From Escherichia phage RB43: 64,000 nucleotides of DNA. Below, piece by piece: positions 5,755-22,532 of this stretch (positions are counted from its first letter, which is position 1; every line of letters begins with the position of its first letter). Under the pieces are notes generated by a model. That model was not told where the DNA came from. It was given only the letters and a program-made list of their open reading frames with translations, and made no database searches. The DNA lies in the sequence record NC_007023.1. One strand, 5' to 3'. The translations under genes were made by a program, and so were the position numbers.

Positions 5755-7974
5755 TTACAGTTTAACTTCTTTTTCTTCCAGAACGATTTCGCAATCGAAT
5801 GTTGCACCTTCCCAGAATTTATGCGGGATAATGTCAGTCGCTTTAACCGATACTTTGGTTTCTTCAAAATCCAGATCCGCAAACCAGGCGTGGCCTACAA
5901 CGATACCATACATTACACGGCTCAGGCGCTTGTTCAGTGCGCGTACTTCGTTGATGGTTGCCTTTGTTTCTTTATCAAGGTACTCGATTACCTTATCCTT
6001 GTCAAGCGCTGCGAGTTCAGCTTTAACAGAATCGTAAGCCCACAGGATGATCAGGTCGCCGTTGTTCAGTTTCTTCTTACCTTCGGCACGTTTCGCAACG
6101 GTTGCCGCTACAGCAGGAAGGGAGGAAACACCCTTGATTTTCAGATTCAGTTCTTTCGACATATAAACATCAGTCGAATCGGTACTGGTTACTTTCGGGG
6201 AGAATCCATAATCACGAATACCCTGTTCAGATAACCATTCACCAGCGGCTTCACCGTATTTCTGTTTCAGACCTTCGGCATTACGTAAACCGATCGCGTC
6301 GTCACGGAAGAACTTCATCACCTTCTGGCGACCTTTCAGGATTTCCAGACGGATAGAGTCGTTTACATACTCTTTACCGGAGATCCCGCGAGTCATCGCA
6401 CGGTTAACCAGGGGCAGACTGGTAAAGTCAACCAGTACCGACATGCGGTCTTCACCGATTTTTGCCAGCGGCTTGATAGTCAAACCAGAAGCGCGAAGGT
6501 TTTTCAGTGTCGGAATATCAGTTTCCAGCGGCAGAACCTTAACGTTTACGATACCGTCTTTAACGATGGTAAAGTTACGTACCTGCTTAGTTTCGATCTG
6601 TTCAGGCAGTTTCAGTTCTTTCTGTTTGCTTTCTGGGATAGTTACGTAACCCATCAGATCCGTGTTAATGGAAATGTTAGGACGTGAACTGTTACCGACC
6701 AGGTGCTTAACCGATACTTTGGTTGTAGTCTGGGTAAATTTCGGTGTCCAGATTTCATGCGTTACCATTTGCGCCGCAAGTGCTTTGCGTTCTTCCGGTG
6801 TTTTCGCGTTTGCAATCTGTTCAGACAGTTGATCCAGAGTATCATCTTCTTTCTGTACCGTCTGACGGCCTGTGCGGTTGTACGCCCAGTGTTCAGAGGA
6901 CAGGTCGATCACAGTGTCGGTTTCTGCCAGCAGTTCGAGAGCGTCAACCAGAGTGAACGCGTTTTCGTCTGGAACCATGTTGTAATCAACACCATCGAGC
7001 AGACGTTTAGCCGGATCAACTACCGCTTCCGCGATCAGGTCTTTCGCGTTGGAATAGTCCTGTTTGGTAAAGCAGTTATCATACGCCTTAATCAGACGAA
7101 CATCACCCAGCTTTTTCAGCACTTTCCATGCAAGGTCAGGGTTCATTGTGTGTAGCGCATGATACAGCACGACATACAGAACCTGTTCACCTTCCAGAGT
7201 AGCCGGATCGAAACCGTCGATGTCGTTGATTGCGTTATCACCCAGCGCCCAGATGTTTTTGATGTGCTCAGGAACCAGAACAACACCGTTTGCAGCGTTC
7301 AGGACATACACACGCCCTTCGTCCAGGTAGATAGCATGGGTTGCGTCAGCAACTTTAACTTCGACGCGAGCGGAGGTTTGCGCGGTGATGATTTCAGCAA
7401 ATGCTGGCTCGTATGCGTCGAAACCTTCAACGAATTTATGCAATGCGTTGGTTGCTTCTGCCATTTTTTCCAGCAGAGGACGGTTAACATAATAGCCGTA
7501 TTCCAGGAATGCAATGCTGTTAAACGTCAGCGGGAGAACCGCACACGCTTTCAGGATGTCATCGGTACGCCAGCAGTTATCATAACCATCAGTCAGGAAG
7601 ATCAGGCTGTTCAGGTTGCCGTTTTCGGATTGCAGGTCGGTTGCGATTTCAGCAGCCAGATTCAGTGGTTCAACAAAACCAGTACAACCAGTAGGTTTCA
7701 GATAACGGTCGATCGCGGTACAGATATTGGTCAGATCCGATACGTTGCTAACCTTCTCACCACGGAACACAGTACCGTAATCGCCTTTGCTGGAGAAGTA
7801 CAGGATCGAAACGGTGTCATCCTGTTTAACCAGACTCGCCAGGTTTGCTTTCAGGTGCTTACGGATCTTCGGCAGTTCGTTATACATTGAACCGGAAACG
7901 TCGCAAACGAAAACGTGGTTGGTCGGAGTCGGCTTAGATACTGCGTTTTTGAATTCGATATTTGTAATTGACAT
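5755..7974 (-). CDS. von Willebrand factor A (vWA) domain protein, 739 aa
   Basis: N-terminal MIDAS motif VFVCDVSGSM (DxSxS) and downstream IFLTDGYDN; long C-terminal region of unknown function. Confidence 0.8.
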   Translation of the reverse strand: MSITNIEFKNAVSKPTPTNHVFVCDVSGSMYNELPKIRKHLKANLASLVKQDDTVSILYFSSKGDYGTVFRGEKVSNVSDLTNICTAIDRYLKPTGCTGFVEPLNLAAEIATDLQSENGNLNSLIFLTDGYDNCWRTDDILKACAVLPLTFNSIAFLEYGYYVNRPLLEKMAEATNALHKFVEGFDAYEPAFAEIITAQTSARVEVKVADATHAIYLDEGRVYVLNAANGVVLVPEHIKNIWALGDNAINDIDGFDPATLEGEQVLYVVLYHALHTMNPDLAWKVLKKLGDVRLIKAYDNCFTKQDYSNAKDLIAEAVVDPAKRLLDGVDYNMVPDENAFTLVDALELLAETDTVIDLSSEHWAYNRTGRQTVQKEDDTLDQLSEQIANAKTPEERKALAAQMVTHEIWTPKFTQTTTKVSVKHLVGNSSRPNISINTDLMGYVTIPESKQKELKLPEQIETKQVRNFTIVKDGIVNVKVLPLETDIPTLKNLRASGLTIKPLAKIGEDRMSVLVDFTSLPLVNRAMTRGISGKEYVNDSIRLEILKGRQKVMKFFRDDAIGLRNAEGLKQKYGEAAGEWLSEQGIRDYGFSPKVTSTDSTDVYMSKELNLKIKGVSSLPAVAATVAKRAEGKKKLNNGDLIILWAYDSVKAELAALDKDKVIEYLDKETKATINEVRALNKRLSRVMYGIVVGHAWFADLDFEETKVSVKATDIIPHKFWEGATFDCEIVLEEKEVKL

Positions 7975-7984
7975 TTAGTTTTTC

Positions 7985-8221
7985 TCAGTATTTGGATTTG
8001 GTTGTTTTGTGTACATTTAAAATGCTTTGGATTTTTTCGGAAATCGTTTGCTGGTCTGGTTCACATCCCAACTTACCGCCAATCGCCTTGTAAAAATCTT
8101 CAACAGAGCTTACGTTGAAATCCGGCATATGGAAACCTAACGAGTACATATGCGGATTGTGGAATTCGTAAACATCCACATTGTATTCGTTAAGATCGAA
8201 ACGTTCAAGATATTTCTTCAA
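7985..8221 (-). CDS. hypothetical protein (78 aa)
   Basis: ORF in operon context. Confidence 0.45.
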   Translation of the reverse strand: MKKYLERFDLNEYNVDVYEFHNPHMYSLGFHMPDFNVSSVEDFYKAIGGKLGCEPDQQTISEKIQSILNVHKTTKSKY

Positions 8222-11993: not shown

Positions 11994-12019
11994 AAAAAAG
12001 CCCCGAAAGGGGCTTTTCT
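11994..12019. terminator. bidirectional rho-independent terminator
   Basis: aaaaagccccGAAAggggcttttc. Confidence 0.6.
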
Positions 12020-12253
12020 TTATGCTTCAAAATCAATTTCGTCGATCTTGTAAGACTCTTCATCGATATCAGCCCACAGAGTGACTTTAACCGTTTTACG
12101 GTCTTCGTACATGTCACGACCATCATAGCCGCCCGTGTACTCGCTGTGCGTCTGTTCATCCACTTCTAAACGCAGACTATCGCGCATGATTGGACAACAG
12201 CCTGTCCAGCGTAACAGAATCTGGGTGCTGTTCTGTGCCACCAACTCGAACAT
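12020..12253 (-). CDS. hypothetical protein (77 aa)
   Basis: ORF. Confidence 0.4.
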   Translation of the reverse strand: MFELVAQNSTQILLRWTGCCPIMRDSLRLEVDEQTHSEYTGGYDGRDMYEDRKTVKVTLWADIDEESYKIDEIDFEA

Positions 12254-12280
12254 CTTTCAGGTGTAAAATAATATCGCTCA

Positions 12281-12559
12281 TTAGTAGAACTTTCCATATG
12301 TGTTGAAATTGATACTTTCGTGGTTACGTTCATTGATCGTGATTTCATAATCGTAATCTTCATTAGTAACCGCGCGGTCGTGTTTGATAACGTTCACGTC
12401 ATAAACGCGGGATAACGCATGATACAAAGAATCACGGATCTTTTCAGCAATCTTCGCGGGTTCGCTATACATATTGAGCATATCAGCAACAATACCTTCT
12501 ACTCGCTGAATATCTCGCTGTTCGATGTATCCTACGTACAGGCTTACGTCTTTAATCAT
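12281..12559 (-). CDS. hypothetical protein (92 aa)
   Basis: ORF coupled to upstream nucleotidyltransferase. Confidence 0.45.
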   Translation of the reverse strand: MIKDVSLYVGYIEQRDIQRVEGIVADMLNMYSEPAKIAEKIRDSLYHALSRVYDVNVIKHDRAVTNEDYDYEITINERNHESINFNTYGKFY

Positions 12560-13554
12560 TTGTAATACCCCAGAACATGATCTTTGTATACCTGTTCGAT
12601 AAAGTCATTCCAGAATTCCCGATCGACTTCTTTCGGATAGGTAGAGATTGCAGCAAGGCGTTCAACTTCGCCCATCACTTCCTCCAGTTTTTCCTGTACT
12701 TCGGCAAACGGGACATTACCAGCTTTAACCGATTTCAACAGGTCACTCTCAGGAAGAGGGTACACGATATCGCCGTGTTTGTAAATCTGTACTAACTGCA
12801 TACCACCGCGCAATGCGTGACTTAATGCTTTCCAATCGATCCCGTTGTTGGCTTCTGCTTGTCGTGCGCGTTCGCCATATTCATCCCAGAGCTTGTACAC
12901 GGATTTCTTCATTTCCGCTACGGTGATCGTGAACTGGAATTTACGACCCAATACTTCATAGAAATTCTGCATACCGCCTTTTTCGCTATAATGCAAAATA
13001 GAACGACAGAATTCATTGGTCGGTAGTTGGTCTTTGATGTCGCCAACTTTGATGTTTTCTATTGCATCACCCAGATTGGAAGGCATACGCACAACGCGAG
13101 TATTTGGGGTGTCTTGTAACACGTCATACACTTCACGCAGTGCAGCCAGGCGAGAACCTTTCACACCATATTTCGCGGCTTGCTTACGGACATAACCGAA
13201 CAGGCCAGTTAACTCCGTAGTGTAGAAACGCCAACGGTTAGCGCGGATATACTGCCAGATTTCAGAGTTAGCGATCAGCTTGCTATCATCAGCATGAAGC
13301 ATATCGAGCGCTACGGTATCACCATCACACGCAAGGCTGATGAACTTAGGCAGACTATACAACTGACGGTCTACGTCATCAACGGTGTTTTTAGAGTTCT
13401 TATCGCCCGTGCTCGTGTCGATAGTCTTCGGGGCTTTACCTAGCAAGATATCGCGTGGATGCGGGAGGAAGATCCCTTTATAATCTTTGTCGCTTGTCGG
13501 GGTGTTCAGCCCGTACAGGTGAGAACCGAACACAGTTTCCATTACAATTTTCAC
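12556..13554 (-). CDS. Pol-beta superfamily nucleotidyltransferase (function unknown)
   Basis: 332 aa; N-terminal VFGSHLYGLNTPTSDKDYKGIF (hG[GS]...DxD) plus later VALDM acidic residue. Confidence 0.6.
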   Translation of the reverse strand: MKIVMETVFGSHLYGLNTPTSDKDYKGIFLPHPRDILLGKAPKTIDTSTGDKNSKNTVDDVDRQLYSLPKFISLACDGDTVALDMLHADDSKLIANSEIWQYIRANRWRFYTTELTGLFGYVRKQAAKYGVKGSRLAALREVYDVLQDTPNTRVVRMPSNLGDAIENIKVGDIKDQLPTNEFCRSILHYSEKGGMQNFYEVLGRKFQFTITVAEMKKSVYKLWDEYGERARQAEANNGIDWKALSHALRGGMQLVQIYKHGDIVYPLPESDLLKSVKAGNVPFAEVQEKLEEVMGEVERLAAISTYPKEVDREFWNDFIEQVYKDHVLGYYK

Positions 13555-13943
13555 AATTCAACTCCCAGAGTTTTTGCAATTTCTTTCAATTGGTCAGTTG
13601 TGATATCAGGAACAGTCACACCGTAACTATGTCCAAACACGTATTTGATCTTAGCGGATAATTCCTCGCGATACAACTTTTCTTTGTACGCCTCTTCGCT
13701 GCGATAAACCTTAATACCGTTCCAATCGTTAGAACTTCCGGTTTTGCGGTCCAGCTTTTCGACGCAATATGATTTAAGATCTGTTTCTGTAGGGTTAGGC
13801 GATGCGTACAGATACTGACGCGCAACCTTATGAACATACAGAATACGCGGTTTTACACGGCAACGGTTATCATATCCACGTTCACCAGGATCATATAAGG
13901 TATCGCCTACTTTAACATCTGTTAAACTCATTTCATTTTCCAA
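13551..13943 (-). CDS. hypothetical protein (130 aa)
   Basis: ORF; 4-nt overlap with NTase start. Confidence 0.5.
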   Translation of the reverse strand: MENEMSLTDVKVGDTLYDPGERGYDNRCRVKPRILYVHKVARQYLYASPNPTETDLKSYCVEKLDRKTGSSNDWNGIKVYRSEEAYKEKLYREELSAKIKYVFGHSYGVTVPDITTDQLKEIAKTLGVEL

Positions 13944-14179
13944 CGTTTTGTTTTATCACAATAGAATACTGGCAATTTGGACAGGACAGGAGTCACCACA
14001 TCTTCACCAGTTTTCGTGTTATGCGTCATTTCGATTGTCAGCGAACGACCAGGCACGGGTTTCACAATATCCAGTTCCATGATCTCCCGATTACCTTTTG
14101 TGTTGATTTCTGCAACATAGTAATCGTTCCCGTTGATGTTAACAACATCACCCATAATTACGCTTCTGCTGTGTTTCAT
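13928..14179 (-). CDS. hypothetical protein (83 aa)
   Basis: ORF. Confidence 0.45.
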   Translation of the reverse strand: MKHSRSVIMGDVVNINGNDYYVAEINTKGNREIMELDIVKPVPGRSLTIEMTHNTKTGEDVVTPVLSKLPVFYCDKTKRWKMK

Positions 14180-14565
14180 TTGTTAATAAACCTTAACGTA
14201 ACGTGCAGGGATTCTAACACTCGTGCGTCAGTACCGTCAATAATCATCATTCCGATAAATTCTTTAGAGCTAACGGAATACATGCGACATAACAGGGAAC
14301 CATCTTTCGCGATATATTCAACGATATACTCACGGCGTGATGATTTGAACGAATCACCGACCATGACCGGACGTTCGACATTCTGGCGTTTTTTGGCTGT
14401 ATAACACAACTCGTTTTCGCCGTTTGGTGCGCAATCTTTACTTCCGATCGACATATCCGTTACAGTAACAGAATTCACAGAACCGCCGATCAGTAAGCTG
14501 GGTTCGCCAGCACCTACTTTCATGATTAGTGTCGAACGGTTTGCAACGGTTTCAGTCACAAACAC
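14176..14565 (-). CDS. hypothetical protein (129 aa, GTG start; possible upstream extension)
   Basis: ORF; 32-aa upstream ORF in another frame suggests possible frameshift. Confidence 0.4.
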   Translation of the reverse strand: MFVTETVANRSTLIMKVGAGEPSLLIGGSVNSVTVTDMSIGSKDCAPNGENELCYTAKKRQNVERPVMVGDSFKSSRREYIVEYIAKDGSLLCRMYSVSSKEFIGMMIIDGTDARVLESLHVTLRFINK

Positions 14566-14716
14566 GTAGCACTGTGGATTCGTTTTCTTTGGCGATTGAC
14601 TGCAAAATGAATTTGGTCTTCTCAGGCGTTCTCGAATGTCCGATTTAAAACACGATCACCGATCGTCAATGTTGTGGTTGAATCGACATCTTCGGTAGTA
14701 CGAATAATTGCTGTTT

Positions 14717-14986
14717 TCATGATAATTTCCTCTCAAATTCTTCATCAGATTTCCAGTACACGTTAAAGTTACGGCAATCGTGATCAGAAGTCAACGTATA
14801 TTTTTCATTTGTTTTTTCATCGGTGATAACCATCGTTTCATTCTCGATCGAGTCAACACCGTACACAAACACTTTGTCACCGCGTTTATTCAGGAACGCA
14901 TCACCTGTTTCAATCAACTGCCAGCAACTAACTGGCAACCCGCCCGAACAGATCGGACGGTTTACTAAACAGTAAGGATGTTTCAT
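14717..14986 (-). CDS. hypothetical protein (89 aa)
   Basis: ORF. Confidence 0.45.
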   Translation of the reverse strand: MKHPYCLVNRPICSGGLPVSCWQLIETGDAFLNKRGDKVFVYGVDSIENETMVITDEKTNEKYTLTSDHDCRNFNVYWKSDEEFERKLS

Positions 14987-15171
14987 TAATCAGCAAGCCT
15001 TATATTGTTCGGATCGGGAACGAAAGTATCCTTTTGAGTAACCATAAACACCAGGAAAGTAGCGATTTCAGGATCATCAATCACGTTGAATTTACGCTTA
15101 CCTTTCCAACGCACAGCGAGTTTGCCATTGTCCAGTTTCTTGATTGCTGCGACTTCTGATTTCGTAGTCAT
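14986..15171 (-). CDS. small hypothetical protein (61 aa)
   Basis: Start at ATG 15169-15171 after RBS AGGAGA; ORF-track N-terminal extension would read through the promoter element. Confidence 0.4.
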   Translation of the reverse strand: MTTKSEVAAIKKLDNGKLAVRWKGKRKFNVIDDPEIATFLVFMVTQKDTFVPDPNNIRLAD

Positions 15172-15240
15172 GATTATCTCCTTTCGTTTCAGTACCCCTA
15201 ATATAACAAAAGCCCTACACGAATGCAAGGGCTTTTTCAA
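15172..15240 (-). promoter_or_regulatory. PeSL-like element B (TTGCAT-17-TATATT with hairpin AGCCCT...AGGGCT)
   Basis: -35 at 15223-15228, -10 at 15200-15205 (minus strand). Confidence 0.55.
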
Positions 15241-15333
15241 CTTATCGACAGAAAGGACAACTAAAAGAGTCGCCGCTTCCACCATGTTTACGACACGCCG
15301 ATTTCTCGATCGGTGTCATTGTTAAAATTTTCA

Positions 15334-16392
15334 TTAGATACCTGTAAATGCTACGACAATCTGATAGTGGTCATCGAAGAATTCCCCTTGTCGTTGTACG
15401 ACCTCATGTAAGGGCATCCAGAACGCGTCTAACGCATCGTCAGAACCGCCCATAATACGTGGTAAACTTCCATCATTGTTAGGTTCTAACTTGATGTATT
15501 GCGCCACAGTCGGTTTTGAGAAGTGTACAGAACGCTTCGGATGATCGAACAGCATCGAATTGCGGATTGAACCACGAATAACCTTTTCAGGAACCTTGAT
15601 CCGAACCTCTTCGAGCAGTTCGCGGATCGCACAATCCAGGAACGTTTCATTTGCGTTTTTGTGTCCACCTGGCAGGGCTAGTGCGCCTTTTCCTGGTGCA
15701 AACTTACGACGAATTACCAGCAGGTGATTGTTGCACACAACCACGTTATCACCCGTGCAGCAGTTTAGCGCTTCTGGGTATGGGTAATTTTTGAATTTCT
15801 CCAATTCACTTTCCCATTTTTCGAATTCGTAGTACAGTCGCCAAAATGTATCCGTCATCATCCATGAATTGATATAACTCACAGTAGACGGAGGAACATA
15901 ACGAGATAGTTTCTTGTCCCATCCATTCTTATGCAAAAAGGATGGTTGGTCGTAAATCGGTCGCAGATAAATCTTCCCATCAACCTTAACCGGATCTACC
16001 GGAACATGAGTCCATCCAAACGCTTTCAGCCAGTATGAATCAGCATCTTTTTCGTAACCATAGATCGCGATGTTATCGCCTTTGGTTTCGTTGATTGCTG
16101 TACGAACAGAAGTTTTCCATTTTTCTTCGTTGTAAAGATAATCAGGAATATGAGCAAACTTAACACGACAAACATCTTCGTATTTGTATTCAGTCATCAG
16201 CCACGAAAAGATCATTCTTTCGCGTTCGTTCGCGGTCAGAGGATTTAAAACGTTGGGGTATGCGTAGGCAGAACCCAGGAGGATGTAAACGGTCTCCGAC
16301 TCTTCCAGTGCTTTACGCACCATCGCCGCATGACCATTATGGAAAGGTTGGAATCTGCCAATCACGACAGCTTTATCAAATTTGTGTTTCAT
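15334..16392 (-). CDS. bifunctional nicotinamide-mononucleotide adenylyltransferase / Nudix hydrolase (NadM/NatV-like)
   Basis: GRFQPFHNGH (HxGH nucleotidyltransferase motif) plus Nudix box GGHKNANETFLDCAIRELLEEV; start likely ATG 16390-16392 with GGAG RBS. Confidence 0.85.
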   Translation of the reverse strand: MKHKFDKAVVIGRFQPFHNGHAAMVRKALEESETVYILLGSAYAYPNVLNPLTANERERMIFSWLMTEYKYEDVCRVKFAHIPDYLYNEEKWKTSVRTAINETKGDNIAIYGYEKDADSYWLKAFGWTHVPVDPVKVDGKIYLRPIYDQPSFLHKNGWDKKLSRYVPPSTVSYINSWMMTDTFWRLYYEFEKWESELEKFKNYPYPEALNCCTGDNVVVCNNHLLVIRRKFAPGKGALALPGGHKNANETFLDCAIRELLEEVRIKVPEKVIRGSIRNSMLFDHPKRSVHFSKPTVAQYIKLEPNNDGSLPRIMGGSDDALDAFWMPLHEVVQRQGEFFDDHYQIVVAFTGI

Positions 16393-16417
16393 AACGTGCT
16401 CCACGTTTAAAGGGTAA

Positions 16418-16515
16418 TCATAAAACAGACGCAATAATCAATACACCAAGCAAACCGCCAATAAAGCCGAAGAATGACGAAATGAAGATAGACAATATAA
16501 TCTGTTTTATGTTCA
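16418..16515 (-). CDS. possible 32-aa hydrophobic peptide
   Basis: Short ORF MNIKQIILSIFISSFFGFIGGLLGVLIIASVL with weak RBS. Confidence 0.25.
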
Positions 16516-16588
16516 TTGTAGTATTCTCGTTTTAAGAGTCAAGCCCCCAGAACGGGGGCTTTAAAATCTTATTTACGAGAATCGAAAA

Positions 16589-17494
16589 TCACTTTGCCAG
16601 CGTAATCAGAACCCATGACAGTTTGAGGTACACCACCTTGTAGCGGGTAGAGTAGTTCATCTGTACATCCAGTTCTTTCCAGCGGATCATTTCTGGTGTA
16701 ATGGTGCGCTGCAACACGGCGTTCGCTTCTGCTTCTTTACGGGCCGCATACAGTTTAGCATCAGCATCACGTTCGTTTGCGAGTGCTTCATTTTCACGCG
16801 CCTGACGATTTGCTTCTGCCTGTTTTACCTGTTGTTGAGAAGTTTGCTCAACCTTCGCCAGTTCAGCACGAGCGGCGTTAACCTGTTCTTCACGGATCTT
16901 CGTGTTAGTTACCTGTTCCATGATAACATCTGGCAGGGTAATATCCTGCAAGAATACCTGTTTCACGGTGTAACCATACGGTCGCGCATACTCTTCAACT
17001 TCCTGCTGAATCGCAGTTTGCAACTGGTTCTGGATCTTTGCGTCGAACAGATCCTGTGCTTTCGGAACTGATTTACCGAATTCGCGAACAGTGGACAGCA
17101 ATTTTTCGGTTACGTATTTATCCAGAGCTTGTTCCTGGTCGCCAGCGTTGATACGGTTAATCGGTGCTTTGTTACCGTCGAATTGCAACATCACGGTCAT
17201 GTCAACAGTCGATTTAAATTTATCCTGGGACGGAACCTGCAACTTGTCGAATTTCTTCGCGATATCTTTCGTACTGAAAGTATCGAAGTCAGCCAGTGGG
17301 TTTACGATATGGAAACCAGGCATGACAGGTTTCGGAGAAACTTTACCCATAAAGGTCTGGGTTTTGACCGTACCGTCCTGTACGATGGTAAAGGAGTTCG
17401 GAACCAGCCACAGTGCAGCAACTACGCCCAGAGCGATCAGAGTGGTTTTCTTCGGGTTGTCACGGATAGTATTAATATTCATAGTATGTCTCAT
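16589..17494 (-). CDS. SPFH/band-7 (prohibitin/HflK/C-like) membrane protein
   Basis: N-terminal TM helix, SPFH-like core, C-terminal Ala/Gln/Glu-rich coiled coil. Confidence 0.65.
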   Translation of the reverse strand: MRHTMNINTIRDNPKKTTLIALGVVAALWLVPNSFTIVQDGTVKTQTFMGKVSPKPVMPGFHIVNPLADFDTFSTKDIAKKFDKLQVPSQDKFKSTVDMTVMLQFDGNKAPINRINAGDQEQALDKYVTEKLLSTVREFGKSVPKAQDLFDAKIQNQLQTAIQQEVEEYARPYGYTVKQVFLQDITLPDVIMEQVTNTKIREEQVNAARAELAKVEQTSQQQVKQAEANRQARENEALANERDADAKLYAARKEAEANAVLQRTITPEMIRWKELDVQMNYSTRYKVVYLKLSWVLITLAK

Positions 17495-17562
17495 TTGATT
17501 AAAGTTTATGTTTCAATTCGATAGTTATTCTATCATCACCATTTCGCTTGTCAAATACTTTT

Positions 17563-17947
17563 TTAAGAAAGTTTTGTCAGCTTGTAAATCGTTTGATAGC
17601 ACAAGCCTTTGATCTCGTCCAGTATGTTCTTCAATGAACTGTCTACTGATTCGTAGATATCGTTGGCTTCGGTGGCTATTTTACGGAGATACGCTACCGT
17701 GTCAAGCACATTTTCAACTTTTAATACGGGGTTTATAACGTCCTGTAATGCCTATATGGATTTCGGTGAATTTGTCTACCAAATCCTGCATATCTTCGTA
17801 AAAACCCTCGTATGCCTTATGTTGCGAATATGACCCCGTCATAAAATGTGCGCTGTGCATATACGTAACAGACATCAGGCATGTGCCAATAAAGGCATCT
17901 ATTTTACTTGTATTATCGCGCTCGACGATTTCGTTAAACGTTTGCAT
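17563..17947 (-). CDS. hypothetical protein with apparent frameshift near 17750 (weak ferritin-like 4-helix guess)
   Basis: ORF 17714-17947 continues in another frame as ALQDVINPVLKVENVLDTVAYLRKIATEANDIYESVDSSLKNILDEIKGLCYQTIYKLTKLS. Confidence 0.3.
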
Positions 17948-17957
17948 CTTTCATCCC

Positions 17958-18242
17958 TTATGAACGGTGAATAGAAGCAAATTCAGTTGCTACCCTAAGC
18001 CCTAAGCGTTTGCATTCAGGTTCAGATTTACACTGCTTCTGCTGCCATTTTCGTTCCATGTAATTATAGAATAGTTCACTGGTATTTACGCTGGGAGGGA
18101 TGGTGTCTAGATACACCTGTAGCGCTGCATTGATGTAATAGTCGAACTCTTTTGCGACCACAGAACGGTCGTCTGCTTGCGATGCTGGAGACAAAATTAA
18201 CAAACCAAACATCAGCGCTTTTGATATGCGTTTAATGTTCAT
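17958..18242 (-). CDS. small secreted protein (signal peptide ...ASQA|DD)
   Basis: 94 aa; N-terminal hydrophobic signal sequence. Confidence 0.5.
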   Translation of the reverse strand: MNIKRISKALMFGLLILSPASQADDRSVVAKEFDYYINAALQVYLDTIPPSVNTSELFYNYMERKWQQKQCKSEPECKRLGLRVATEFASIHRS

Positions 18243-18347
18243 AGCAATTCTCTAAGTGCTTACGGATCAACAATAGACCCGTTCCTGTATATATTTATAG
18301 CAAAAAAGGGGCTAAAAGCCCCTTATGTTAAATTAATCTAAAAATAC

Positions 18348-18741
18348 TTATGTTATATCGTACCAGCATAAACCACGTTCATAAGCACGGATCTTATTGG
18401 CATTGTGAATGTTTTCATCCCATCCAATCACACCCGCTTTCATGCGTTTCAGTTCCTGGCGCATTTTAACGCGTACTTTTGAATCAATCTTTTTCTTTGC
18501 GATCGAAAGCATCGCGGGAGATATCACCATGCGCCTTGTTGCCGTCACGATTCAAATTGTTATCGAACCGGATATATGCGCAACCTGATTTATGTTTCCA
18601 GTTGGTTGTGTACCAACGAAGACCATCAGGATCGCGCCCGTGTTGTGCATAATACTCAGAATATGCCTTTGTCTCTTCGATCTGTTCCAGAGAAGAAAGG
18701 TCACGGATAGGAACATATTTGTTACGGTAAGTACGGCTCAT
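18348..18741 (-). CDS. hypothetical protein, apparently split by frameshift in an A-run (~18488-18500)
   Basis: ORFs 18484-18741 and 18348-18548 overlap at AAAGAAAAAGA homopolymer. Confidence 0.4.
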
Positions 18742-18771
18742 AGATATCTCCTTTTGTTTTCTAATTGCAGA

Positions 18772-19353
18772 TTAGCAATCTACGCCAACTTTATCAAGCA
18801 CTTTTTCATGATAATGTTTCCGGCATAACGAAACATATTTGTCTTCGGCTCCGATTTCGACTTGCTCCCCTTCGGTTACGAAGTTGCCTTGTGCGTCGAT
18901 ACGCGCGACCGTGGTTGCTTTGCGCCCACAGTGACACATTCCCCGTAGTTCTCGGATCTCGTCAGCCCATGCGAGCAACCAGTAAGAACCCTCGAACAGA
19001 TTCAACTGAAAGTCGGTACGCAGCCCGTAACACATTACAGGAATTTCGAGTTCATCAACAACGCGACACAGATCGAAAACGTTTTTCTTCGAAAGGAACT
19101 GTGCTTCGTCAACAAAAATACAGGAAATATTATTCCGGCGTTGAATGTCCCAGAACAGATCCATGCTGGGTGAAATCAGTTCACATGATGCGCTTAACCC
19201 TACGCGAGAAGACACCGTATGTGAACGAGTATCAAGCATAGGCTTGTAAATCACTACGTTCATACCACGTTCTTTGTAGTTGTATGCGTCGGTCAGCAGT
19301 CGTGCGCTTTTACCAGCATTCATTGATGCGTAATGATAATACAGTTTAGCCAT
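18772..19353 (-). CDS. tk: thymidine kinase
   Basis: P-loop MNAGKS, FVDEAQF, C-terminal Zn motif CHCGRKA...C. Confidence 0.9.
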   Translation of the reverse strand: MAKLYYHYASMNAGKSARLLTDAYNYKERGMNVVIYKPMLDTRSHTVSSRVGLSASCELISPSMDLFWDIQRRNNISCIFVDEAQFLSKKNVFDLCRVVDELEIPVMCYGLRTDFQLNLFEGSYWLLAWADEIRELRGMCHCGRKATTVARIDAQGNFVTEGEQVEIGAEDKYVSLCRKHYHEKVLDKVGVDC

Positions 19354-19529
19354 TTGCAGCGTCCTTGATCTCTTTCTTCACGAACAGAATGATATCTTCG
19401 ATTTTGTTTTCGATGTAGCACATGTTTGACATTACGCGCTTCTGTATCATCATCGGTCGCGTAGTCCATGTATAATTCACCCAGTTCTTTCAGTTTGTGC
19501 GTCAACAGCTTTTCTTCTTGCGGTCTCAT
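19320..19529 (-). CDS. hypothetical protein (69 aa)
   Basis: ORF. Confidence 0.35.
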   Translation of the reverse strand: MRPQEEKLLTHKLKELGELYMDYATDDDTEARNVKHVLHRKQNRRYHSVREERDQGRCKWLNCIIITHQ

Positions 19530-19711
19530 TCGCGAGATTCCCTTCTTTCATCGTCGATTAGCTGGTCGATGAAATCAACGATGTCATCAAACCAATCTAC
19601 GGCTTCTTGAGCAGAAACCGAACCTTTCCCACTACCACTCATAAAGCGTTCGCGAGCGTCAGCAAACTTTTCGAGTTTTGAATACAGCTTTTCTTTATGT
19701 TCCTGGATCAT
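19526..19711 (-). CDS. hypothetical acidic protein (61 aa)
   Basis: ORF; ATGA coupling. Confidence 0.4.
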   Translation of the reverse strand: MIQEHKEKLYSKLEKFADARERFMSGSGKGSVSAQEAVDWFDDIVDFIDQLIDDERRESRE

Positions 19712-20200
19712 GATAAATCTACCGTTTTCATGTTAACGTAGGGATCGAAATGTACCACGATGATTGGATAGTCGCCAGTGGCCTTATCAATGATGTCATA
19801 GATGCGCATCCAATCGCCCCCAGCAAGCCCCGCACCAATAAGAGGGGTAACGATAGGCAATTGAACAGGACACGCCTTAGCGCGTTCTACAGCAGATTTG
19901 AAGCATGATTCAATCGCATCATAATCGACTTGTGGGCCTTCACCCCAAAATTTGTATTGGGTGTACGCGTTAAACAGAAGTTTGTTTCCGTCCTGATAAA
20001 CGGAGTTACGCCCCAACTTAGATTGATTGCCCTTCATCGTCATTGCGTCTTCTTTAAACGCACCAGGGATCTTTTTCTTCACTTCTTTGGCGATACCCGC
20101 GCCCATGTTACCAGAAACCAGTTACCACCCCATGAATTAGGTGTACATCGCGATTAAGGAACAGTTCAACCGCGTTACCTTTGATTTCTTTAATGATCAT
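19708..20200 (-). CDS. macro-domain (ADP-ribose-binding/processing) protein, apparent frameshift near 20107-20120
   Basis: Upstream frame MIIKEIKGNAVELFLNRDVHLIHGV... joins MGAGIAKEV..., reconstructing an HGxN(C)xxxMGAGIA macro-like N-terminus. Confidence 0.45.
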
Positions 20201-20292
20201 TGTTTATTACCCATTCGATAGCCGATCCCAATAACCAGCCCCATTATAATCACAACAGTGATCAGTATTGCAAATTGCATACCTATGCTCAT
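20197..20292 (-). CDS. possible 31-aa membrane peptide
   Basis: MSIGMQFAILITVVIIMGLVIGIGYRMGNKQ; ATGA overlaps on both sides. Confidence 0.25.
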   Translation of the reverse strand: MSIGMQFAILITVVIIMGLVIGIGYRMGNKQ

Positions 20293-20435
20293 TTGAATTG
20301 ATCATCCCATATTTGCCACGCTTCCAGTTCATCATTGTATTCAGGTAATGAACGTTCGCCAGGCTTCATTAAACAGTACCATATGATAATTGCAACAGCA
20401 ATAACCATTCCATAGAAAATAATTAGTCCTATCAT
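20289..20435 (-). CDS. possible 48-aa membrane peptide
   Basis: MIGLIIFYGMVIAVAIIIWYCLMKPGERSLPEYNDELEAWQIWDDQFK; ATGA coupling. Confidence 0.3.
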   Translation of the reverse strand: MIGLIIFYGMVIAVAIIIWYCLMKPGERSLPEYNDELEAWQIWDDQFK

Positions 20436-20758
20436 CAATATAATCCTATTCCGGCGTTGTACTCGTCAACCAAGTAGGTACGCAACTTTTCACAACGTTC
20501 CTTATTTGGTGCGCTAGTACATAGTTTCATCATCGGTTCAGACTGCAAAAACTCACGCTGTTTAGCCAGCTTTTGACGCTTAACCAGGTGCGCGTTTTCT
20601 TCGCCCCACACATAAGCAGCGTCCAGTTGTTCCGCGATCACCTGATAACATACAGCAGTATCTTTAATGTCGCGATGGTCGCAGAGTTCAGAAAGACGGT
20701 TGTCGTCTGCATACGCGAAACCAGAAACCAGAGTCAATAAAAGCGCAAGTTTTTTCAT
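20435..20758 (-). CDS. small secreted protein (signal peptide ...GFAYA|DD)
   Basis: 107 aa; N-terminal signal sequence. Confidence 0.5.
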   Translation of the reverse strand: MKKLALLLTLVSGFAYADDNRLSELCDHRDIKDTAVCYQVIAEQLDAAYVWGEENAHLVKRQKLAKQREFLQSEPMMKLCTSAPNKERCEKLRTYLVDEYNAGIGLY

Positions 20759-20759
20759 G

Positions 20760-21425
20760 TTAACCTCGATATGTCACGTCTTCGATAGGGTTATAGTAAT
20801 GATTCTTGCAAATATACGCAAGTGTTTTTCGTAGGCTTGCGCTGGCAAACAGAGGATCGCGGTTGTACGTCATAGAACGATAGGTGTGTACTTCCCAGAC
20901 TTCCCGATCAGTATCATACACGAAGCAATAGCTTTCATATTCAGACAGCATATGATCCATGATGTCGAAATACAGTTGTTTGTTTTCGTTCATCTTAACA
21001 AACGGCTTGATCAACTTGATTGCTTCATAAACCTGGTCAAGATTGCTATGGTCTTCATTCATCGCAACACGAATAACTGATTGATTCGTGTCTGGATTAT
21101 ATGTGTTGGTTGCAACACCAAGTTCATAAAAGAAGTTAGCAGCATCGCGATATGTTTCACCACCAGTGCGGGGAGAATTCAGGTAATACTCAATACGTTT
21201 TTCTACAGAGGAACTCCGCATAATGACGGCCTTTATGTCATCAATTCGTTCCTGCAAGTCAATACGCTTTTTGTTTAGTTCCGTAGCACGTTTTTGGAGT
21301 GGTTCAAGCTGGGTTCTTACTTCGTCAAACTCACTTGTAATGGCTGTCAACTGCTTTTCTAAGGTTTGGCTCAACATAGAAGTTGCGTTTTCGTTTACCT
21401 TATTCATAGCTTCTGCGTATGTCAT
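20760..21425 (-). CDS. hypothetical protein (221 aa; N-terminal coiled coil)
   Basis: ORF. Confidence 0.5.
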   Translation of the reverse strand: MTYAEAMNKVNENATSMLSQTLEKQLTAITSEFDEVRTQLEPLQKRATELNKKRIDLQERIDDIKAVIMRSSSVEKRIEYYLNSPRTGGETYRDAANFFYELGVATNTYNPDTNQSVIRVAMNEDHSNLDQVYEAIKLIKPFVKMNENKQLYFDIMDHMLSEYESYCFVYDTDREVWEVHTYRSMTYNRDPLFASASLRKTLAYICKNHYYNPIEDVTYRG

Positions 21426-21427
21426 GA

Positions 21428-21829
21428 TTATTCCCCTAATACATATTCAAAACGATGTTCCAGCGCATCATTAACGCTTTCGTAAACTCCCCCAATACGT
21501 GTAGCCTTACGAATGCCGGACTTGACAATATTCATGATCTCGACGTTACTACCCCAAACATTCAGGTTGAAATACAATTCGCAATCGATCGGATGGTCGT
21601 TTGTGTCGTAATACATGTCACAACCTTCGCAAACAAACAGTGTACGCTTTTCGTCGCCATACTGGAAGTGAATGTTAAACGCAGACATACTATCTTTATC
21701 AACAGTAATGTCAATGATGCGAACCTTTGGGTTGCTTTTCAGTTCGGTAAGAACACTTTGGATAACATGCAGAGTGTTCAGCTTGACAATCCCTACTCTG
21801 CCTACAATGACTCGATGTGATGTACTCAT
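21428..21829 (-). CDS. hypothetical protein (133 aa)
   Basis: ORF downstream of promoter element F. Confidence 0.5.
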   Translation of the reverse strand: MSTSHRVIVGRVGIVKLNTLHVIQSVLTELKSNPKVRIIDITVDKDSMSAFNIHFQYGDEKRTLFVCEGCDMYYDTNDHPIDCELYFNLNVWGSNVEIMNIVKSGIRKATRIGGVYESVNDALEHRFEYVLGE

Positions 21830-21896
21830 AATTTAATCCTCAATGGTTGATGCACACATAATAAAAAAGCCCCTGCAAAAATGCAAGGGCTTTTGA
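21830..21896 (-). promoter_or_regulatory. PeSL-like element F (TTGCAT-17-TATTAT with hairpin GCCCCTGCA...TGCAAGGGC)
   Basis: -35 at 21881-21886, -10 at 21858-21863 (minus strand). Confidence 0.5.
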
Positions 21897-22532
21897 TCAA
21901 ATAATTTGCTTTTCTTCTAACAGTTTCGCGGTATGGTTAACCATGCGAGCATATTCACGGGCTTCTTTCTTTCCATACTTAAAGCCAGCGTTATAACTCG
22001 CGAGCGCCTTTTTCAAGTCGCCTTTGTGGTAATCAAGCCAGTATTCCAGTTCATGAATAGCGTACTTAGAACCGCCCCGAAGGGTTTCAAGCGTTTTGAT
22101 TACTACGCGTTTGGAATATGATTTATCCATCCGTGCTAAAGCACTATTTGCGGTTACTTGCCAGCACCCGTAAGCGTGATGACCTTTCTTACCCTTTCCG
22201 GTGTTCTCACATGCGCGAGACTCGATCCAGGCAATAGCCGCTAAATGATATCCCAAACGTTTCGATTGTTCCGTTTCAACAGGTTTTGCAGTTTTGAGAT
22301 CATACTCGTTTCCGATCCTGAAAGCATACTCCAAAACCTTTTTCTGCTTTGGTGTAATTTCGTCCAGTTCCTTCACATATGATGGTGCTTTCTTGATCAC
22401 TGTTGCTTGTTGAAGCGGTAATGTTGACTGATAAGCCGGAAGTTTTTCGATGAATTCCCCAAGCGGATCTGTCTTTGCGTGACCAGAAAAAGAGCATAAG
22501 AAAATGCTGGTCGCTAAAATAATTTTCTTCAT
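21897..22532 (-). CDS. periplasmic lytic transglycosylase-like protein (SLT-type)
   Basis: Signal peptide; SLT-like AIAWIESRA...AYGCWQV...SYNAG. Confidence 0.6.
   Translation of the reverse strand: MKKIILATSIFLCSFSGHAKTDPLGEFIEKLPAYQSTLPLQQATVIKKAPSYVKELDEITPKQKKVLEYAFRIGNEYDLKTAKPVETEQSKRLGYHLAAIAWIESRACENTGKGKKGHHAYGCWQVTANSALARMDKSYSKRVVIKTLETLRGGSKYAIHELEYWLDYHKGDLKKALASYNAGFKYGKKEAREYARMVNHTAKLLEEKQII

What the first reader, a model, noticed from the sequence alone, without database searches (positions are those of the whole stretch)
16589..17494. SPFH/band-7 membrane scaffold protein in a phage early region
HflK/C-like SPFH proteins regulate membrane proteases such as FtsH. A phage copy could modulate host membrane-protein quality control or lysis timing.
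Basis: partly seen in the sequence, partly recalled or inferred. Interest (0 to 1): 0.4.

Follow-up and report, generated by a model that had tools for sequence, protein, structure and literature searches.

The report
Phage RB43 SPFH (band 7) membrane protein
This is a real membrane-scaffold (SPFH/band 7) gene of the T4-like phage RB43; the domain was already published in 2006, the gene is widely shared with T5-like phages, its function is still unknown, and nothing links it specifically to the protease FtsH or to lysis timing.

Summary
The ORF at 16589..17494 (minus strand, 301 aa) is real and encodes an SPFH/band 7 protein (Pfam E=2.5e-15). An AlphaFold model gives full-length Foldseek matches to every solved SPFH cage subunit. 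The window is phage RB43 and the gene is RB43ORF139c, listed as "SPFH domain/Band 7 family" by Nolan et al. in 2006, so the domain call is not new.

Refinements:
- The likely start is 17482.
- A 1-nt homopolymer difference near 16637, probably a sequencing error, replaces the conserved C-terminal motif. The intact gene would end at 16569.
- The gene has its own conserved sigma-70-type promoter and a strong hairpin after the stop codon.
- It is a single-gene cassette under strong purifying selection (dN/dS 0.02-0.12). It occurs in 741 of 50,697 phage records, including T5 (T5.080).
- Its closest cellular relatives are stand-alone chromosomal genes of Morganella/Providencia and other gammaproteobacteria, without NfeD partners.
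- Charge bias, and lipoprotein-signal variants in distant relatives, suggest the SPFH body faces the periplasm.

It is not specifically HflK/C-like, and its position next to rI is not conserved. A role in FtsH control or lysis timing remains untested. Verdict: an ordinary, already annotated gene of unknown function.

The parts
16589..17494 (-). ORF as it reads in the window (301 aa); the last ~17 residues are out of frame relative to all homologs
16569..17482 (-). Probable true gene (RB43ORF139c; 304 aa in RB43-GVA). It needs one extra base near 16637 and starts at the second ATG, as annotated in RB43-GVA, RB16, Olmo and GuL6
16636..16640 (.). Homopolymer-length difference (TT in the window, TTT in RB43-GVA) that frameshifts the conserved C-terminal motif; probably a sequencing error in the window's record
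   Evidence: 15 single-base indels against 1 substitution in 10 kb, nearly all in homopolymers
17390..17440 (-). N-terminal hydrophobic segment (residues ~15-31, LIALGVVAALWLVPNSF) preceded by R/KK: predicted signal anchor, N-terminus in the cytoplasm
16835..17359 (-). SPFH/band 7 domain (Pfam PF01145 match)
16643..16930 (-). Two long helices (residues 185-260 and 263-280) equivalent to the CC1/CC2 wall of SPFH cages
   Evidence: architecture as described in PMC12624060
16569..16636 (-). Conserved C-terminal motif (GGVPQTVMGSDYAGKVIFDSRK), present in the DNA but out of frame in the window; modelled at low confidence as two short strands
17527..17554 (-). Sigma-70-type promoter TTGACA-16 nt-TAGAAT with TG extension and an upstream A-run, between rI.-1 and the SPFH gene; identical in RB16, Olmo and the L007 phage contig
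16541..16561 (-). GC-rich hairpin (AGCCCCCG...UGGGGGCU) just after the true stop codon: terminator-like or transcript-stabilising. The T-run is weak, so the terminator scan did not call it
   Evidence: -25.2 kcal/mol for the 56-nt stretch, z = -5.8

Best explanation
The gene is RB43ORF139c, the RB43 copy of a conserved stand-alone SPFH (band 7) protein. The family is shared by many virulent phages of gammaproteobacteria and by some gammaproteobacterial chromosomes.

Most likely mechanism: host RNA polymerase transcribes the gene from its own sigma-70-type promoter soon after infection. The N-terminal signal anchor inserts into the inner membrane with the N-terminus inside. The SPFH1/2, CC1, CC2 and C-terminal body lies on the periplasmic face. 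There the protein self-assembles, like other SPFH proteins, into a homo-oligomeric dome that fences off a patch of inner membrane together with one or more host or phage membrane proteins. The client is unknown.

Shown here: the ORF, the domain, the fold and domain order, the membrane helix, the promoter match and its conservation, purifying selection, distribution, and the lack of a partner gene.

Inferred: expression timing, orientation, oligomerisation, and any client.
For: - Domain and fold: Pfam Band_7 E=2.5e-15. The AF2 model has the order TM, alpha/beta, long helix, helix, strands. Full-length Foldseek hits to all solved SPFH cage subunits match the TM-SPFH1-SPFH2-CC1-CC2-CT architecture described in PMC12624060.
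- Identity: the window is 99.8% identical to RB43. P0001 is named RB43ORF139c, and Nolan et al. 2006 list it as SPFH/Band 7.
- Expression: TTGACA-16-TAGAAT promoter (11/12 matches plus TG) directly upstream, identical in three relatives. The T5 ortholog T5.080 lies downstream of the annotated promoter P16-17 in the tRNA region.
- Orientation: 3 K/R before the TM helix against 1 after it. Across 262 family members, 187 have more K/R on the N-side and 36 on the C-side. Twelve distant members replace the anchor with a lipobox signal placed right before the first SPFH strand, which implies export. The top structural matches (erlin, HflC, prohibitin) are also N-terminal-TM, non-cytosolic SPFH proteins.
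- Functional constraint: dN/dS is 0.025 (RB43 vs RB16), 0.018 (T5 vs VEc33) and 0.05 (RB43 vs T5). There are 55 invariant columns among 31 homologs, and a C-terminal motif conserved down to the bacterial relatives.
- Stand-alone cassette: the neighbours differ between Pseudotevenvirus, 44RR2.8t, PX29 and T5-likes. No NfeD or second SPFH gene lies next to it in phages or bacteria.
Against: - No experiment exists for any member. Literature searches found only domain-level mentions, and a 2026 paper says the reason such a gene occurs in a phage is unclear.
- The orientation rests on the positive-inside rule and on distant lipobox variants, not on a dedicated predictor or on data. The best sequence match in the PDB, QmcA, is (from my own knowledge) cytoplasm-facing.
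- Oligomerisation is by analogy only; the monomer model cannot show it, and the C-terminal strands have pLDDT below 50.
- Promoter-like hexamers are no more frequent in this region than in shuffled sequence (10 found against 9.4 expected), so the promoter call depends on its quality, position and conservation.
- In the window as given, the conserved C-terminus is frameshifted. If that is real, this isolate's copy may be defective.
Confidence: 0.75

Rival explanations
1. HflK/C mimic: the phage cage encloses or competes for host FtsH in the periplasm-facing membrane. This would change the turnover of membrane proteins, such as phage holin/antiholin or host quality-control substrates, and thereby lysis timing or host takeover.
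For: Same predicted N-in/C-out orientation as HflK/C. HflC and HflK chains from FtsH-HflKC structures are among the full-length structural matches. Two of the N-terminal-TM SPFH cages, HflKC and prohibitin, partner AAA proteases (established knowledge; PMC12048511 abstract). In Pseudotevenvirus the gene lies two genes downstream of rI.
Against: No HflK/HflC NCBIfam match. The profile E-value to HflC is only 4e-3 and HflK is not hit, while QmcA and prohibitins score better. It is a single gene, not a K/C pair. The rI adjacency is lost in 44RR2.8t and in T5-likes. The bacterial relatives sit in unrelated neighbourhoods, not near ftsH or hflX.
Confidence: 0.12
2. Superinfection exclusion or envelope protection: an early periplasm-facing membrane scaffold that blocks DNA entry or envelope damage by secondary phages, comparable in role to T4 Imm/Sp.
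For: Early-type promoter and envelope location. It is an accessory single-gene cassette exchanged between unrelated virulent phage lineages at about 77-79% identity, a pattern typical of competition genes (inference).
Against: No similarity to any known exclusion protein. No PADLOC match. Chromosomal relatives in non-prophage housekeeping contexts point to a general membrane function rather than a phage-specific one.
Confidence: 0.1
3. Cytoplasm-facing, QmcA/stomatin-like orientation: the body sits inside the cell and organises the cytoplasmic face of the membrane.
For: QmcA is the best sequence match in the PDB (3.5e-6 and 7.8e-7), and the alignment includes the N-terminal helix.
Against: Basic residues lie before, not after, the hydrophobic segment in RB43 and in 187 of 262 relatives. 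Lipobox-bearing relatives imply export. There is no NfeD partner like QmcA's YbbJ.
Confidence: 0.12
4. Lipoprotein, as named by PHROG and many RefSeq records.
For: phrog_200 carries the name 'lipoprotein'. Some distant members do have a lipobox.
Against: The RB43 protein has no cysteine at all. Most close homologs also lack a lipobox.
Confidence: 0.02
5. The frameshift is real and this RB43 stock carries a C-terminally altered, possibly defective, allele.
For: The window sequence as given reads through a different 17-residue tail. P0001 shows the same reading in the public RB43 record.
Against: Against RB43-GVA the window has 15 single-base homopolymer indels and only 1 substitution in 10 kb. 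Several of them break other conserved ORFs, including rI.-1, a hypothetical gene and NadM/NUDIX. That is the signature of base-calling errors, not of evolution.
Confidence: 0.1

Closest known systems
RB43ORF139c and its orthologs (RB16p130 'putative SPFH domain-containing protein/band 7 family protein', 44RRORF098c, Aeh1ORF064c, T5.080)
   Same: It is the same gene, or a direct ortholog at 57-100% identity: about 300 aa, one N-terminal TM helix, a Band_7 domain and the conserved C-terminal motif.
   Different: Nothing is different. These records give only a domain name or 'lipoprotein', and none has a tested function.
E. coli HflK/HflC (FtsH-modulating SPFH cage)
   Same: SPFH fold with the TM-SPFH-CC-CT order and a full-length structural alignment. 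Same predicted N-in/periplasmic orientation.
   Different: About 18% identity. No HflK/HflC family-model match. A single gene instead of a heteromeric K/C pair. Not linked to hflX or ftsH. FtsH binding is untested.
E. coli QmcA (SPFH-NfeD complex QmcA-YbbJ, PDB 8z5g)
   Same: Best sequence-level match among solved structures (E 3.5e-6 and 7.8e-7), of similar length and with an N-terminal helix.
   Different: No NfeD partner gene. The charge distribution around the TM helix is opposite, which suggests the opposite orientation (QmcA's orientation is from my own knowledge).
Eukaryotic erlin1/2 and prohibitin1/2 cages
   Same: Top structural matches. N-terminal TM helix followed by SPFH1/2, CC1, CC2 and CT, assembled on the non-cytosolic side of the membrane.
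   Different: 15-19% identity. They are hetero-oligomers of two paralogs, organellar, and there is no evolutionary proximity beyond the superfamily.
Stand-alone chromosomal SPFH genes of Morganella/Providencia and of Methylococcaceae/Methylophagaceae
   Same: Nearest cellular relatives, at 52-56% and 33-43% identity over the full length. They have the same N-terminal anchor, the 'NSYT.V' entry motif and the C-terminal 'G.(V/Y)P.T' motif, and no NfeD partner.
   Different: They are chromosomal, in housekeeping neighbourhoods, and not in prophages. They are also uncharacterised.

Membership tests
SPFH / band 7 superfamily (Pfam PF01145) | Significant match to the Band_7 profile above the gathering score | tested here: met
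   57.4 bits against a 23.6-bit cut-off, E=2.5e-15
SPFH / band 7 superfamily (Pfam PF01145) | SPFH alpha/beta fold followed by CC1/CC2 helices and a C-terminal segment, with an N-terminal membrane anchor | tested here: met
   AF2 model at pLDDT 79.9. Foldseek full-length hits to erlin, HflC/K, PHB, stomatin, QmcA and flotillin, E 1.6e-13 to 2.5e-7. Architecture as defined in PMC12624060
SPFH / band 7 superfamily (Pfam PF01145) | Assembly into a large ring- or dome-shaped oligomer on a membrane | not testable with these tools
   Only monomer prediction was available; needs native PAGE, cryo-EM or multimer modelling
HflK/HflC | Match to the HflK or HflC family models | tested here: not met
   No NCBIfam SPFH-family match at E<=0.01. 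The profile hits HflC only at E=4e-3 and does not hit HflK
HflK/HflC | Two adjacent paralogous genes forming a hetero-oligomer | tested here: not met
   Single SPFH gene in every phage and bacterial locus examined
HflK/HflC | Type II topology: N-terminus in the cytoplasm, SPFH body in the periplasm | tested here: inconclusive
   The positive-inside bias and lipobox variants favour it, but there is no experimental or dedicated-predictor result
HflK/HflC | Binds and modulates FtsH | not testable with these tools
   Needs co-purification or substrate-stability assays
QmcA/stomatin-type SPFH-NfeD pairs | Adjacent NfeD-family partner gene | tested here: not met
   The window neighbours are NadM/NUDIX, DUF5856 and antiholin. 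The only downstream ORF is a 32-aa peptide restricted to Pseudotevenvirus. The bacterial relatives have no NfeD neighbour
Bacterial lipoprotein (PHROG/RefSeq name) | Lipobox with an invariant cysteine after the signal peptide | tested here: not met
   The RB43 protein has 0 cysteines. A lipobox is seen only in 12 distant relatives
T4-type lysis-inhibition module (rI and partners) | Conserved linkage with rI across phages that have both genes | tested here: not met
   Adjacent to rI.-1/rI only in Pseudotevenvirus. In 44RR2.8t the two are about 3 kb and nine genes apart and in a different order. In T5-likes the gene is among tRNA genes
Known anti-phage defence proteins (PADLOC) | Match to a defence-system protein model | tested here: not met
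   No match at E<=0.01

The most novel reading that the evidence does not exclude
The most novel reading not excluded: this is a periplasm-facing, homo-oligomeric SPFH cage that virulent phages of two unrelated lineages (T4-like and T5-like) deploy early in infection. It would capture a specific inner-membrane host factor, such as FtsH or another quality-control or defence component. That would make it the first viral SPFH protein with a defined host-takeover or anti-defence role, and T5.080 would be a ready genetic model for it.
Probability: 0.15. Interest if true: 0.6.

Novelty: already known. Interest (0 to 1): 0.22.

Why it matters
As a finding it adds little. The domain has been in the literature since 2006 and in GenBank annotations of close relatives, and no function can be assigned here.

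What could matter is the family:
- It is a tightly conserved SPFH protein with no known partner, carried by about 1.5% of sequenced phages (741 of 50,697 records), including the model phage T5.
- It belongs to an uncharacterised bacterial SPFH branch and probably faces the periplasm.
- SPFH cages are currently being solved structurally, but their clients are mostly unknown. A phage version with a strong fitness signal and easy genetics (T5.080, RB43 ORF139c) could be a tractable route to a client.

A practical point: the widespread 'lipoprotein' label is wrong for this protein, and the public RB43 reading of its C-terminus is probably a sequencing artefact.

Tried and rejected
- NCBIfam and PADLOC scans gave no meaningful match, so no finer family or defence assignment is possible.
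- I looked for a co-transferred partner gene. The 32-aa membrane ORF downstream occurs only in Pseudotevenvirus. T5-likes, 44RR2.8t and PX29 have unrelated sequences or none there, and the bacterial relatives have no NfeD or second SPFH gene. The operon-partner idea is rejected.
- I tested the link to rI and lysis inhibition by synteny. It is not conserved.
- I tested the 'lipoprotein' label. It is rejected, because the protein has no cysteine.
- Five literature searches (phage SPFH, RB43/Tequintavirus/Pseudotevenvirus, locus tags, anti-defence terms, T5 early genes) found no functional work. The YP_006908 hit was an unrelated accession.
- The listing of cluster members on ten distant representatives returned almost no names, so it could not separate phage from cellular members. 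The genome-contig scan did that instead.
- One ORF extraction in the tree script (the Myxococcota locus) picked the wrong frame and was ignored. The NJ tree is rough and has no support values.
- A homo-oligomer or FtsH co-fold could not be attempted, because the structure tool takes single chains only.

Full report
**What is there.** The ORF listing returns an ORF at exactly 16589..17494 on the minus strand, 301 aa. It matches Pfam Band_7 (PF01145) at E=2.5e-15, 57.4 bits against a 23.6-bit cut-off, over residues 46-220. It also matches PHROG phrog_200 at E=2.3e-74. The window is phage RB43: 15000-19000 is 99.8% identical to the two RB43-GVA records, and related Pseudotevenvirus genomes follow at 84-98%.

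**It is already known.** The homology search returns the protein as "hypothetical protein RB43ORF139c" (P0001). Table 3 of Nolan et al. 2006 (PMC1524935) lists RB43ORF139c, 44RRORF098c and Aeh1ORF064c as "SPFH domain/Band 7 family". The RB16 ortholog is annotated [quoted passage not shown], and the Olmo ortholog "PHB domain-containing protein". No function is given anywhere. Five full-text searches found no experimental work on a phage SPFH protein. A 2026 paper on a phage with such a gene states that the reason for its presence is unclear.

**Corrections to the coordinates.** In 15000-19000 the window differs from re-sequenced RB43-GVA only by six single-base indels. Over 12000-22000 there are 15 such indels and one substitution, nearly all in 2-4-nt homopolymer runs. 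One of them (TT against TTT near 16637) shifts the frame of the last ~17 residues. The window reads ...RYKVVYLKLSWVLITLAK, whereas RB43-GVA, RB16, Olmo, T5 and all other aligned homologs read ...RYKGGVPQTVMGSDYAGKVIFDSRK or close variants. Other indels split rI.-1 and a neighbouring hypothetical gene, both of which are intact in relatives. This is the pattern of base-calling errors, so the real gene most likely runs from 17482 to 16569. The second ATG is the annotated start in relatives and has a GAG element upstream.

**Anatomy.** An AlphaFold2 model of P0003 was built on a 31-sequence alignment and has mean pLDDT 79.9. P0003 is 91% identical and has an intact C-terminus. The model shows a helix at 10-29, a beta-rich alpha/beta domain at 31-182, a 76-residue helix at 185-260, a second helix at 263-280, and two short low-confidence strands at the end. 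Foldseek against the PDB aligns 270-313 of the 304 residues to erlin1/2 (1.6e-13), HflC (4.8e-12), prohibitin (5.7e-12), stomatin (1.9e-11), HflK, QmcA (2.4e-9), flotillin and major vault protein, all at 13-19% identity. This is the TM-SPFH1-SPFH2-CC1-CC2-CT layout described for SPFH cages (PMC12624060). No single subfamily stands out. At sequence level the family profile hits QmcA (7.8e-7), prohibitins (1e-4 to 6e-4) and HflC (4e-3), but not HflK. No NCBIfam or PADLOC model matches.

**Orientation.** The hydrophobic segment (LIALGVVAALWLVPNSF, Kyte-Doolittle mean 1.96) is preceded by R and KK (3 K/R) and followed by 1 K/R within 15 residues. Among 262 family members, 187 have the excess on the N-side and 36 on the C-side, with means of 2.3 and 1.3. 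Twelve distant representatives replace the anchor with a lipoprotein-type signal (for example ...LLGSC...LGAC...LTGC) placed immediately before the first SPFH strand, which implies export of the domain. Both lines of evidence point to an N-in/C-out protein with a periplasmic body, as in HflK/C, erlin and prohibitin. This remains an inference. The RB43 protein has no cysteine, so the common "lipoprotein" label does not apply to it.

**Expression signals.** Between rI.-1 and the gene lies TTGACA-16 nt-TAGAAT, with a TG extension and an upstream A-run (17554..17527). It is one of the two best promoter-like sites in the region, and it is identical in RB16, Olmo and a third Pseudotevenvirus genome. 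Directly after the true stop codon is a GC-rich hairpin; the 56-nt stretch folds at -25.2 kcal/mol with z = -5.8. Overall, promoter-like hits are no more frequent here than in shuffled sequence. The call therefore rests on quality, position and conservation. The surrounding 40 kb is the leftward block of T4-type early, non-essential genes (tk, rI, phoH, e, nudE, gene 1) between two baseplate clusters.

**Distribution and evolution.**
- tblastn finds the protein in 741 of 50,697 phage records. These are Pseudotevenvirus (83-100% identity), several hundred T5-like Demerecviridae (about 79%), Aeromonas T4-likes (57%), and Vibrio and Aeh1-type phages (about 30%).
- T5 itself has it as T5.080, in the early tRNA region downstream of promoter P16-17, and 435 T5-like records carry it at the DNA level.
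- The neighbours differ in every lineage. The only downstream candidate partner, a 32-aa hydrophobic ORF, is confined to Pseudotevenvirus. The gene therefore moves as a single cassette.
- It is under strong purifying selection, with dN/dS of 0.025 (RB43/RB16), 0.018 (T5/VEc33) and 0.05 (RB43/T5).
- An exhaustive profile search finds 86 representative clusters at E<=1e-30 and 350 at E<=1e-10.
- A scan of species-representative genomes finds full-length chromosomal relatives in Morganella and Providencia (52-56%) and in Methylococcaceae, Methylophagaceae and other gammaproteobacteria (33-43%).
- Those relatives sit in ordinary neighbourhoods: amino-acid permease, TetR, alcohol dehydrogenase, the SPFH gene and then an HlyD-type protein in one case, and trpB, trpA, accD, folC, the SPFH gene and then an oxidoreductase in the other. 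Neither has prophage genes or an NfeD gene.
- In a rough NJ tree the phage copies form one clade, sister to the Morganella/Providencia genes, and both lie within the wider bacterial family. The phage gene thus belongs to an uncharacterised, stand-alone bacterial SPFH branch. No relative in E. coli, the host of RB43, was returned by that scan.

"SPFH membrane scaffold in an early region" holds. "HflK/C-like" holds only at superfamily level and perhaps in orientation; the family-specific tests fail (no model match, a single gene). The FtsH idea is neither supported nor excluded. The lysis-timing idea loses its only support, because linkage to rI is not conserved.

**Mechanism I commit to.** The protein is an early-expressed, signal-anchored, periplasm-facing SPFH protein. 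It self-assembles into a dome on the inner membrane and confines an unknown client. My confidence is about 0.75 for that general picture and about 0.12 for FtsH as the client. Superinfection exclusion or envelope protection, and a cytoplasm-facing orientation, each stand at about 0.1.

**Verdict.** This is a correct but already published domain assignment for a gene of unknown function, so novelty and interest are low. The family-level features are modestly useful leads for anyone studying SPFH cages: its breadth across phages, the T5 ortholog, the bacterial relatives, the probable periplasmic orientation and the strong selection.

Noticed in passing
window 12000-22000 (indels at 12189, 12204, 14569, 14644, 15215, 15940, 15973, 16637, 17728, 18516, 19425, 20111-20128): Against re-sequenced RB43-GVA the window has 15 single-base indels and only 1 substitution, nearly all in short homopolymers. 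They split or shift several ORFs that are intact in relatives: rI.-1/DUF5856 becomes 17563-17709 plus 17714-17947; a hypothetical gene becomes 18348-18548 plus 18484-18741; and there is a local frameshift in NadM/NUDIX between 15940 and 15973. They are probably sequencing errors in this record.
   Followed up: partly
window 16418-16516 (-), with promoter-like TTGACT-16-TACAAT at 16542..16515: An unannotated 32-aa, very hydrophobic ORF (MNIKQIILSIFISSFFGFIGGLLGVLIIASVL) lies between the SPFH gene and the NadM/NUDIX gene. It is conserved in RB16 and Olmo (annotated only in Olmo) and is absent next to the SPFH gene in T5-likes, 44RR2.8t and PX29.
   Followed up: partly
window 17958-18242 (-) and 17563-17947 (-): An rI antiholin homolog (Pfam Antiholin, E=6.7e-26) is followed by rI.-1 (DUF5856; PHROG name 'starvation-inducible transcriptional regulator'). 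This pair lies directly upstream of the SPFH gene in Pseudotevenvirus only.
   Followed up: partly
window 15334-16434 (-): A bifunctional NadM-type nucleotidyltransferase plus NUDIX hydrolase (Pfam CTP_transf_like and NUDIX) lies just downstream. It is an NAD-salvage-type auxiliary gene already discussed by Nolan et al. 2006.
   Followed up: no
window 19708-20106 (-): A small macro-domain protein (Pfam Macro E=9e-6, with a weak ThsA_Macro match). In the window its N-terminal region is affected by four indels at 20111-20128; RB43-GVA and GuL6 annotate a longer 489-nt gene here.
   Followed up: no
L007 (NZ_JBHSCL010000010.1, 'Flagellimonas marina', 178,077 bp); P0003, P0026, P0037: Several 174-178-kb records labelled as bacterial contigs or plasmids (Flagellimonas marina, a Klebsiella pneumoniae plasmid, Enterobacter asburiae) carry this gene at 83-91% identity. 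They look like complete Pseudotevenvirus genomes mislabelled as cellular DNA.
   Followed up: partly
phage records MG065692.1 and MG065642.1 ('Campylobacter phage C13/A148'); two 'Listeria' records counted: T5-like SPFH genes at about 79-86% identity occur in records whose host labels (Campylobacter, Listeria) are implausible for T5-like enterobacterial phages. This may be contamination or mislabelling.
   Followed up: no
L068 (phage T5, NC_005859.1 39791-40738): The T5 ortholog T5.080 lies immediately after tRNA-Arg and the stable RNA 'RNAX'. It is next to an annotated major single-strand nick site and a bidirectional terminator, which is convenient for genetic work on the family.
   Followed up: no
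window 6001-8000: GC content rises locally to 0.479 against about 0.43 elsewhere. The rise coincides with a 2.2-kb hypothetical gene in the GuL6 annotation (GuL6_118).
   Followed up: no
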